DNA of 64,000 nucleotides from Escherichia coli. Lineage in GTDB: Bacteria > Pseudomonadota > Gammaproteobacteria > Enterobacterales > Enterobacteriaceae. The stretch lies in assembly GCF_051903065.1 (NCBI RefSeq), contig NZ_CP178438.1, one strand, 5' to 3'. The notes under the pieces are model-generated. The model made no database searches. It was not told where the DNA came from and saw only the letters and a list, made by a program, of their open reading frames with translations. Position numbers and translations under genes: made by a program. Below, in pieces: positions 12,673-13,574 of the stretch (position 1 is the first letter of the stretch; each line of letters starts with the position of its first letter).

Positions 12673-13574
<902 letters not shown>

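What the first reader, a model, noticed from the sequence alone, without database searches (positions are those of the whole stretch)
12673..12679. Slippery heptamer A_AAA_AAG for programmed -1 frameshifting in the IS transposase
AAAAAAG lies near the end of orfA, and the -1 frame is open from exactly this point into the DDE-domain ORF with no intervening stop (hand-translated as KKAPGAGEKTKVIQNLKCGHC...). This implies an OrfAB fusion transposase of about 450 aa made by ribosomal frameshifting, as in IS150 and IS911. A second A-rich run (GAAAAAAC, 12694-12701) follows.
Basis: seen in the sequence. Interest (0 to 1): 0.35.

Follow-up and report, generated by a model that had tools for sequence, protein, structure and literature searches.

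The report
IS1397 transposase programmed -1 frameshift site
The A_AAA_AAG heptamer is the programmed -1 ribosomal frameshift site of a known E. coli insertion sequence, IS1397, already annotated as such in RefSeq, so the finding is correct but ordinary; the only twist is that the site sits 27 bases downstream of where all related elements keep theirs.

Summary
AAAAAAG lies at 12673-12679, in the A_AAA_AAG phase of orfA (12200-12721). The -1 frame is open from 12613 to 13548 and has no canonical start before GTG 12826. Shifting at the heptamer gives a 449-aa OrfAB protein with HTH, leucine zipper and DD(35)E domains.

The element at 12149-13580 (1432 bp) is IS1397, of the IS3 family, IS150 group. 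It sits in the loop of a REP palindrome between torD and cbpM, with a TTT target duplication. Identical copies in RefSeq E. coli genomes carry a joined CDS noted "programmed frameshift". The finding is therefore already known.

One thing was not anticipated. Forty-four relatives at 50-57% identity, IS150 included, share one signal: GGAG, 11 nt, A_AAA_AAG directly after the "YL" codons, 6 nt, then an 11-bp covarying stem. IS1397 has lost the heptamer and the stem at that position. It carries an equivalent signal 27 nt further 3': AGGAG, 11 nt, the heptamer, then a new hairpin at 12680-12727 (-15.2 kcal/mol, z -3.3).

Frameshifting at this site in IS1397 itself is inferred, not measured here. 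Interest is low.

The parts
12149..13580 (+). IS1397 (IS3 family, IS150 group), a complete 1432-bp copy with TG...CA ends
   Evidence: It is 100% identical over 1432 bp to elements annotated 'IS3-like element IS1397 family transposase' in RefSeq E. coli genomes. Matches occur at 7626 places in 3496 of 5426 genomes.
12149..12173 (+). Left terminal inverted repeat (TGAACTGCACCCCAAATGTTGGACA)
   Evidence: It is part of inverted repeat I1, paired with 13556-13580.
13556..13580 (+). Right terminal inverted repeat (...GGGGTTCTGTTCA)
   Evidence: It is part of inverted repeat I1.
12146..12148 (.). Target-site duplication TTT, left copy; the right copy is at 13581-13583
   Evidence: The empty site in another E. 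coli strain reads ...GCCTGATAAGACGCG-TTT-AGCGTCGCATCAGGC... (L087). The IS therefore sits in the loop of a REP/palindromic unit.
12131..12145 (.). Left half of the split REP palindrome; the right half is at 13584-13598
   Evidence: The outer part of inverted repeat I1, together with the empty-site comparison.
12200..12721 (+). orfA, 173 aa, with an HTH domain and a leucine zipper (M135, L142, L149, L156)
   Evidence: The ORF is listed. Pfam HTH_28 and HTH_Tnp_1 match the N-terminal part.
12641..12655 (+). Vestige of the ancestral IS150-group frameshift position: TAT CTG AAA GCC ATG, which is not slippery
   Evidence: It aligns with TAY YTA AAA AAG YTG of 44 relatives, both in MAFFT alignment A1 and in the covariance-model alignment.
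12657..12661 (+). Shine-Dalgarno-like AGGAG, 11 nt upstream of the heptamer; a candidate 5' stimulator
   Evidence: The sequence is seen and scored. It has the same 11-nt spacing as the GGAG of 24 of 44 relatives at their own site. It lies inside the 6-17 nt window used by Sharma et al. 2014 (PMC4066793).
12673..12679 (+). Slippery heptamer A_AAA_AAG, the proposed -1 frameshift site
   Evidence: Its phase is verified. A 28-mer exact word centred on G12679 occurs at 5018 places in E. coli genomes, against 5213 places that hold the surrounding 101 nt.
12680..12727 (+). Predicted hairpin: CGC/GCG, CAGG(12683-86)/CCUG(12717-20) and CUGGA(12689-93)/UCCAG(12710-14). It encloses the orfA stop codon and is a candidate 3' stimulator.
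   Evidence: RNAfold gives -15.2 kcal/mol with z -3.3 (2 of 500 shuffles fold as well). The commonest allele gives -15.9 kcal/mol with z -2.1. No covariation test is possible because the copies are at least 95% identical.
12694..12701 (+). Second A run, GAAAAAAC. It is not a canonical heptamer in the orfA phase and is at most a minor alternative shift site (A_AA.A tetramer).
   Evidence: It aligns with the A-rich loop of the relatives.
12679..13548 (+). The -1-frame part of OrfAB (residues 161-449), with HTH_21 and rve domains and DD(35)E residues D295 (13081), D355 (13261) and E391 (13369)
   Evidence: Pfam rve, rve_2 and HTH_21 match. NF033516 matches.
12826..12828 (+). First canonical start codon (GTG) in the orfB frame, a possible start for a separate OrfB
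   Evidence: Only a weak, distant AAGGA lies upstream, at 12808-12812.

Best explanation
This is the recoding site of IS1397. Most ribosomes translating orfA terminate at UGA 12719-12721 and make the 173-aa OrfA, an HTH and leucine-zipper protein. A minority do something else when AAA (12674) is in the P site and AAG (12677) is in the A site. Both tRNA-Lys slip back one base onto A_AAA_AAG and re-pair with AAA AAA. Decoding then continues from GCG (12679) in the -1 frame to 13548. The product is the 449-aa OrfAB transposase, with junction ...LLEKK-APGAGE..., which joins the DNA-binding and zipper part to the DD(35)E catalytic domain. Two elements probably raise slippage: an upstream Shine-Dalgarno-like AGGAG 11 nt before the heptamer, and a downstream hairpin at 12680/12683-12720/12727. 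Shown here: the sequence, the phase, the open frame, the domain continuity, the element's identity, the conservation of an in-phase A6G/A6A in relatives, and the RefSeq annotation. Inferred: that ribosomes really shift here in IS1397, how often they do, and that the AGGAG and the hairpin are stimulators.
For: The heptamer's phase and the open -1 frame are verified. The element is 100% identical to copies annotated IS1397 with a joined CDS noted 'programmed frameshift'. The fusion matches NF033516 in one stretch across the junction, 389 bits against a cut-off of 160, and Pfam gives HTH plus rve domains. 449-aa fused proteins of 98-99% identity are on record. Residues conserved with IS150 lie upstream of the first -1-frame start codon. 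In-phase A_AAA_AAG or A_AAA_AAA is present in 72 of 77 related loci from several phyla. A_AA.A_AA.G is among the three most efficient -1 heptamers in E. coli (Sharma et al. 2014, PMC4066793, read). The AGGAG has the same 11-nt spacing as the GGAG of relatives. The hairpin satisfies that paper's empirical rules, since it starts 4 nt after the motif with a C-G pair plus 3 further pairs and is stronger than 7.6 kcal/mol. The element is evidently active: identical copies sit at different loci (mobB-rrf in L001, torD-cbpM here) and some genomes hold up to 40 places.
Against: I had no direct measurement for IS1397. The primary IS1397 papers (PMC94167, PMC95333, PMC169884) are not in the held library. 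The hairpin begins only 0-3 nt after the heptamer, whereas relatives use 6 nt, so its lower helix would already be melted inside the ribosome when the shift occurs. Its significance is modest, and weaker in the commonest allele (z -2.1). It cannot be tested by covariation. An SD-like motif occurs in about 17% of 17-nt windows of orfA by chance. The run is A7, so RNA polymerase slippage could give the same protein.
Confidence: 0.9

Rival explanations
1. Transcriptional slippage. RNA polymerase stutters on the A7 run (12672-12678) and adds one A to a fraction of transcripts. Standard translation of those transcripts then gives the same OrfAB, GAA AAA AAA GCG = EKKA.
For: The run is seven A's. 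The IS3-family element IS1447 uses transcriptional slippage, and seven A's were reported sufficient there (PMC6211511).
Against: The same paper states that the well-characterised IS3 subgroups use -1 translational frameshifting at A6G/C/A motifs. In the relatives the conserved feature is the in-phase heptamer with a 3' stem at 6 nt, which is the architecture of a ribosomal signal. IS1447 instead has a longer run (A9) with an upstream hairpin.
Confidence: 0.05
2. The shift occurs mainly at the second A run (12694-12700, codons AAA AAA preceded by G). This would give a fusion with the junction ...RQELEKK-TKVIQ....
For: A -1 shift there also enters the open orfB frame. It contains an A_AA.A tetramer, which is listed as weakly shift-prone (PMC4066793).
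Against: It is not a canonical X_XXY_YYZ heptamer in the orfA phase. Tetramers need a strong stimulator and are about 10-fold weaker than the best heptamers. It lies in the loop of the predicted hairpin, with no structure at the right distance downstream.
Confidence: 0.03
3. There is no recoding. OrfA and OrfB are made separately, with OrfB starting at GTG 12826, and the heptamer is a chance feature of a lysine-rich coiled-coil region.
For: AAAAAAG is common in this window, 40 copies. A GTG start exists at 12826.
Against: Protein sequence conserved in the -1 frame extends about 45 codons upstream of GTG 12826, with no start codon in that stretch. The profile match is continuous across the junction. 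An in-phase slippery heptamer is conserved in 72 of 77 relatives. The ribosome-binding site before GTG is weak.
Confidence: 0.02

Closest known systems
IS1397 as annotated in RefSeq E. coli genomes (for example WP_106417158.1 and WP_100245061.1)
   Same: The DNA is identical over all 1432 bp. The two-ORF layout and the 'programmed frameshift' CDS spanning 12200-13548 are the same. One strain, ECNB21-M121, has the same torD-cbpM insertion with a single base difference, at 12716.
   Different: PGAP places the join one base 3' of the mechanistic site by re-reading C12680, so its conceptual protein has P161 where tandem slippage predicts A161. This copy carries a minority allele, with A at 12713, 12716 and 12722.
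IS150, the reference member of the subgroup (A_AAA_AAG plus 3' stem-loop; the experimental basis is Vogele et al. 1991, cited from my own knowledge and not read here)
   Same: It uses the same heptamer and the same OrfA / OrfAB / -1 logic. OrfB is 52% identical. The residues around the junction region are conserved.
   Different: In IS150 the heptamer follows the 'YL' codons directly and is followed, 6 nt later, by the stem GCCUUAGCUC/GAGCUAAGGC. In IS1397 that position reads CTG AAA GCC, only 2 of 11 stem pairs can form there, and the heptamer lies 27 nt further 3'.
IS911 and the E. coli dnaX -1 frameshift signals
   Same: They have the same A_AAA_AAG heptamer, combined with an upstream SD-like sequence and a downstream structure (PMC4066793 and PMC5009743).
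   Different: The IS911 structure is a three-way junction, whereas the IS1397 prediction is a single interrupted hairpin with a very short spacer. No experimental efficiency for IS1397 was available to me.
IS150-group elements of Klebsiella pneumoniae (L014, L034; probably ISKpn1, an assignment from memory that I did not verify)
   Same: They belong to the same subgroup, with OrfB 54% identical.
   Different: They keep the ancestral cassette. L034 scores 81.5 bits with model R1 and L014 forms 11 of 11 stem pairs.

Membership tests
IS3 family insertion sequence | Terminal inverted repeats that begin with TG and end with CA | tested here: met
   The ends read TGAACTGCACC... and ...GGTTCTGTTCA, and the 25-nt arms pair.
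IS3 family insertion sequence | Short (3-4 bp) target-site duplication | tested here: met
   TTT lies on both sides, and there is a single TTT in the empty site of L087.
IS3 family insertion sequence | Two partly overlapping ORFs with orfB in the -1 frame, and a DD(35)E (rve) catalytic domain in orfB | tested here: met
   The overlap is 12613-12721. Pfam rve matches profile positions 2-102 of 102. The catalytic residues are D295, D355 and E391, with K398.
IS3 family insertion sequence | The fused protein scores above the curated cut-off of NCBIfam NF033516 (transpos_IS3) | tested here: met
   It scores 389.2 bits against a cut-off of 160, in one stretch covering residues 62-442.
IS1397 (the specific element) | Near-identity over the full length to elements named IS1397 | tested here: met
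   It is 100% identical over 1432 of 1432 bp to annotated IS1397 copies.
IS1397 (the specific element) | Insertion into the loop of a REP/palindromic unit of a BIME (the published target specificity, as summarised in PMC1525189) | tested here: met
   The split palindrome GCCTGATAAGACGCG|TTT|AGCGTCGCATCAGGC is seen by comparison with the empty site.
Programmed -1 ribosomal frameshift signal (criteria of Sharma et al. 2014, PMC4066793) | An X_XXY_YYZ heptamer in the 0-frame phase, inside the overlap of two ORFs related by -1 | tested here: met
   A_AAA_AAG at 12673 is in phase with orfA and lies inside 12613-12721.
Programmed -1 ribosomal frameshift signal (criteria of Sharma et al. 2014, PMC4066793) | An SD-like sequence 6-17 nt upstream of the motif (optional stimulator) | tested here: met
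   AGGAG lies at 12657-12661, 11 nt before the heptamer. The chance rate is about 17% per window.
Programmed -1 ribosomal frameshift signal (criteria of Sharma et al. 2014, PMC4066793) | A hairpin that starts 4-10 nt after the motif, opens with G-C or C-G plus at least 3 further pairs, and needs at least 7.6 kcal/mol to unfold | tested here: met
   C12683-G12720 plus 3 further pairs; -12.8 kcal/mol for 12683-12720. It sits at the lower limit of the allowed spacing and has no covariation support.
Programmed -1 ribosomal frameshift signal (criteria of Sharma et al. 2014, PMC4066793) | A trans-frame protein is actually produced and depends on the motif | not testable with these tools
   This needs a reporter assay, a Western blot or mass spectrometry. 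The primary IS1397 papers are not held.
IS150-type frameshift cassette (conserved in the IS150 group) | The heptamer lies immediately after the conserved ...AENAYL codons | tested here: not met
   IS1397 has CTG AAA GCC at those alignment columns, and its own heptamer is 27 nt further 3'.
IS150-type frameshift cassette (conserved in the IS150 group) | An 11-bp stem GCCUUAGUUCA/UGAACUAAGGC starting 6 nt after the heptamer. In the 45-sequence alignment A1 (44 relatives plus IS1397) 92% of cells are paired, 6 pairs have compensatory changes, and 0 of 500 shuffles reach the observed score. | tested here: not met
   In IS1397 only 2 of 11 pairs can form at the homologous columns. Covariance model R1 scores IS1397 at 21.7 bits, against 81-119 bits for held-out relatives.

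The most novel reading that the evidence does not exclude
In the IS1397 lineage the whole frameshift cassette was rebuilt 27 nt downstream of the position that is otherwise fixed across the IS150 group, from Bacillota to Enterobacterales. The cassette consists of the SD-like box, the slippery heptamer and the 5' arm of the stimulatory hairpin. The 11-nt spacing between SD and heptamer was kept, the total linker length was unchanged, and the region of the old 3' arm was reused. As a result OrfAB of IS1397 shares one more leucine-zipper heptad (L156) with OrfA than its relatives do. This would be a clean natural example of turnover of a recoding signal within an overlapping-gene window. I could not check whether ISfinder or the IS3-family surveys have already noted it.
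Probability: 0.6. Interest if true: 0.3.

Novelty: already known. Interest (0 to 1): 0.12.

Why it matters
The frameshift sets the ratio of regulator (OrfA) to transposase (OrfAB), and hence the transposition rate, of an insertion sequence found in about two thirds of complete E. coli genomes. This is textbook IS3-family biology and is already in the RefSeq annotation, so the finding adds nothing new in itself. The displaced cassette is a small evolutionary curiosity. It shows that the position of a recoding site inside an overlap can move while the three-part architecture is regenerated. It also gives a natural variant for asking how spacer length and shared zipper length affect frameshift efficiency and OrfA/OrfAB interaction. 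A practical by-product is that the PGAP conceptual translation of IS1397 transposases (…EKK-P-PGAGE…) probably has one wrong residue at the junction.

Tried and rejected
1. I tried to read the primary IS1397 papers (PMC94167, PMC95333, PMC169884) for experimental data on the frameshift. None is held, and a full-text search for IS1397 together with frameshift gave only one paper, whose title and abstract do not concern IS1397 frameshifting and which I did not open.

2. Most database proteins have P at residue 161 where my fusion has A. I first suspected that the common allele has A_AAA_AAC. A 55-nt query with C at the centre found nothing, while the G version found 5018 places. Rebuilding the join showed that PGAP simply re-reads base 12680, so this is an annotation convention and the C-allele idea is rejected.

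3. An Rfam search of the cassette at a permissive E-value gave only noise and no frameshift-element family.

4. I looked for relatives between 57% and 95% identity, which could have dated the relocation or allowed a covariation test of the new hairpin.

5. Folding 128 nt downstream of the heptamer gave an unconvincing z of -1.6. Only the 51-nt hairpin window is significant.

6. I considered whether the displacement is an alignment artefact, that is, a 9-codon insertion upstream plus a 9-codon deletion downstream, or a 9-nt deletion that removed AAAAAAGCT. These histories cannot be told apart. All of them leave the IS1397 heptamer non-orthologous to the conserved one and the old stem gone, so the conclusion stands whichever path was taken.

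Full report
**Observation.** The window reads AAAAAAG at 12673-12679 and GAAAAAAC at 12694-12701. orfA runs from ATG 12200 to TGA 12719-12721 and encodes 173 aa. Its codons around the site are GAA(12671) AAA(12674) AAG(12677) CGC(12680). The heptamer is therefore phased A_AAA_AAG, as tandem -1 slippage requires.

The -1 frame is open from 12613 to the stop at 13546-13548. Its first canonical start is GTG 12826. Shifting at the heptamer gives a 449-aa fusion.

The heptamer alone is weak evidence. It occurs 40 times in the window, against 19 expected from shuffles. An in-phase copy inside a 109-nt overlap is expected only about 0.01 times by chance (my arithmetic).

**What the element is.** The segment 12149-13580 (1432 bp) is bounded by 25-nt inverted repeats that begin with TG and end with CA. 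It is 100% identical to copies that RefSeq annotates as "IS3-like element IS1397 family transposase". Each of those carries a two-piece CDS noted "programmed frameshift", corresponding exactly to 12200-13548. Matches occur in 3496 of 5426 complete E. coli genomes, with up to 40 places per genome.

Comparison with an empty torD-cbpM intergenic region shows the insertion point (L087). The element sits in the loop of a REP palindrome, GCCTGATAAGACGCG-TTT-AGCGTCGCATCAGGC, and duplicated TTT. This is the target specificity reported for IS1397 (PMC1525189). One other strain, ECNB21-M121, has the same insertion with a single base difference, at 12716.

**Evidence that the fusion is the functional product.**
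- The conceptual OrfAB has HTH_28, HTH_21, rve and rve_2 domains.
- It matches NCBIfam NF033516 (IS3 family transposase) in one uninterrupted stretch, residues 62-442, at 389 bits against a cut-off of 160.
- The catalytic residues are D295, D355 and E391, with K398 seven residues after E391.
- Hundreds of 449-aa fused proteins of 98-99% identity are on record.
- About 45 residues conserved with IS150 (…DLLKAAGLARSTLYYQL…DKYAD versus …ELLRAAEIPRSTFYYHL…DKYAD) lie in the -1 frame upstream of GTG 12826. That frame has no start codon there, so these residues can only be translated after a shift.
- Identical copies at unrelated loci (mobB-rrf in L001, torD-cbpM here) show recent transposition.

**Relatives.** A scan of one genome per species returned 80 loci whose OrfB is 50-57% identical, from Bacillota, Enterobacterales, Bacteroidota and others. 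In 72 of the 77 loci analysed, an in-phase A_AAA_AAG or A_AAA_AAA lies in the orfA/orfB overlap.

In these relatives the heptamer always follows the codons for …AENAYL directly (…TAY YTA AAA AAG YTG…). This holds for IS150 itself, fetched from a plasmid. Six nucleotides later comes the arm GCCUUAGUUCA, which pairs with UGAACUAAGGC across a loop of about 25-65 nt that holds the orfA stop.

On the 45-sequence alignment this 11-bp stem is paired in 92% of cells. Six pairs show compensatory changes, for example G-C to A-U 14 times and C-G to U-A 4 times. None of 500 shuffles reaches the observed covariation, and the signal collapses when the 3' partner is slid by one column. GGAG lies 11 nt upstream of the heptamer in 24 of the 44 relatives.

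**IS1397 departs from this arrangement.** MAFFT and a covariance model built from the 44 relatives both align IS1397 12629-12730 to the cassette by sequence. The heptamer columns, however, read CTG AAA GCC. Only 2 of the 11 stem pairs can form there, and the covariance-model alignment marks 7 of 11 pairs as non-standard. The model score is 21.7 bits, against 81-119 bits for 15 held-out relatives.

The IS1397 heptamer lies 27 nt (9 codons) further 3'. Relative to the Bacillota members the alignment is ungapped in both frames, and the linker between …AENAYL and …KVI… is 19 residues in both. The switch point has therefore moved without changing protein length.

The new site has its own AGGAG at 12657-12661, again exactly 11 nt upstream. 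It also has its own hairpin:
- CGC/GCG;
- CAGG(12683-86)/CCUG(12717-20);
- CUGGA(12689-93)/UCCAG(12710-14).

The 3' arm of this hairpin occupies the region of the old 3' arm. Its energy is -15.2 kcal/mol with z -3.3 against dinucleotide shuffles, or -15.9 kcal/mol with z -2.1 in the commonest allele. It meets the empirical stimulator rules of Sharma et al. 2014 (PMC4066793), but only at the lower limit of spacing. The copies are too similar for a covariation test, so its role is inferred.

No relatives between 57% and 95% identity were found that could date the change. I cannot tell a pure relocation by point mutations from a history with compensating indels, for instance a 9-nt deletion of AAAAAAGCT. 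Either way the IS1397 site is not orthologous to the IS150 site.

**Mechanism.** The best-supported reading (confidence 0.9) is classical -1 programmed ribosomal frameshifting. Two tRNA-Lys slip from AAA AAG to AAA AAA and decoding continues at GCG 12679. This yields OrfAB with junction …LLEKK-APGAGE…, while ribosomes that do not shift make OrfA. A_AA.A_AA.G is among the three most efficient heptamers in E. coli.

The rivals are:
- transcriptional slippage on the A7 run, which would give the same protein (0.05; compare IS1447, PMC6211511);
- shifting at the second A run, which is non-canonical in this phase and lies in the hairpin loop (0.03);
- no recoding at all (0.02).

**Comparison with what is known.** The element is IS1397, a member of the IS3 family, and every membership feature I could test was met. 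Its frameshifting is already in the RefSeq annotation. It works like IS150, IS911 and dnaX, but it fails the two defining features of the IS150-type cassette, namely heptamer position and the conserved stem. The verdict on the finding is that it is correct and already known, so interest is low. The displaced cassette is a minor observation that may not have been described.

**Side results.**
- PGAP's join re-reads base 12680, so its proteins carry P161 where the mechanism predicts A161.
- The window copy differs from the commonest allele at 8 positions. Three of them cluster in the 3' arm region of the hairpin (A instead of G at 12713, 12716 and 12722). None breaks a predicted pair, and all three change the amino acid in the -1 (OrfAB) frame; 12713 and 12716 also change OrfA, while 12722 lies past the orfA stop codon.
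- This allele is the best match in only 38 of 1723 records.

Noticed in passing
window 12679-12681, and RefSeq proteins such as P0011: The PGAP 'programmed frameshift' join for IS1397 re-reads C12680. Its conceptual proteins therefore read ...LLEKK-P-PGAGE..., whereas tandem slippage on A_AAA_AAG predicts ...LLEKK-A-PGAGE.... Of the 117 full-length (449-aa) listed proteins, about 110 carry P161.
   Followed up: yes
window 12713, 12716, 12722: Of the 8 differences between this copy and the commonest IS1397 allele, three A/G differences cluster within 10 nt around the orfA stop, in the 3' arm region of the predicted hairpin. All three change the amino acid in the -1 (OrfAB) frame; 12713 and 12716 also change OrfA, while 12722 lies past the orfA stop. 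None breaks a predicted pair. The window allele is rare, being the best match in 38 of 1723 records.
   Followed up: partly
window 12131-12148 and 13581-13660: The IS splits a REP palindrome in the torD-cbpM spacer. To its right the window has a further REP-like inverted repeat (13613-13642) that the empty-site strain L087 lacks, so this BIME is itself polymorphic between strains.
   Followed up: partly
whole window: AAAAAAG occurs 40 times on both strands against 19 expected from dinucleotide shuffles (0 of 100 shuffles reach 40). Most copies lie beyond 16 kb.
   Followed up: no
window 46000-50000 and 51243-51330: A low-GC stretch (34-39% GC, against about 50% elsewhere) lies next to a tRNA-Ser(GGA) gene on the minus strand. 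It may be an islet acquired horizontally at a tRNA gene.
   Followed up: no
window 1024-1447 (+), 38954-39147 (-), 56930-57021 (-): Three Rfam matches pass their gathering scores: the cspA thermoregulator (160 bits), the Ysr251 antisense RNA (188 bits) and the ES056 sRNA (120 bits).
   Followed up: no
window 13475-13481: There is a second AAAAAAG inside the IS, within orfB (cAA AAA AGA). It is out of phase for tandem -1 slippage and not in an overlap, so it is not a recoding candidate.
   Followed up: yes
L071, L079 (relatives) and L089 (E. coli LF82): L071 and L079 have no in-phase heptamer in my ORF-based scan, yet they score 95-103 bits with the cassette model, so they are probably copies with disrupted reading frames. 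The LF82 IS1397 copy is annotated 'frameshifted' and has a 1-nt deletion at the equivalent of 12345, but it keeps the heptamer.
   Followed up: partly
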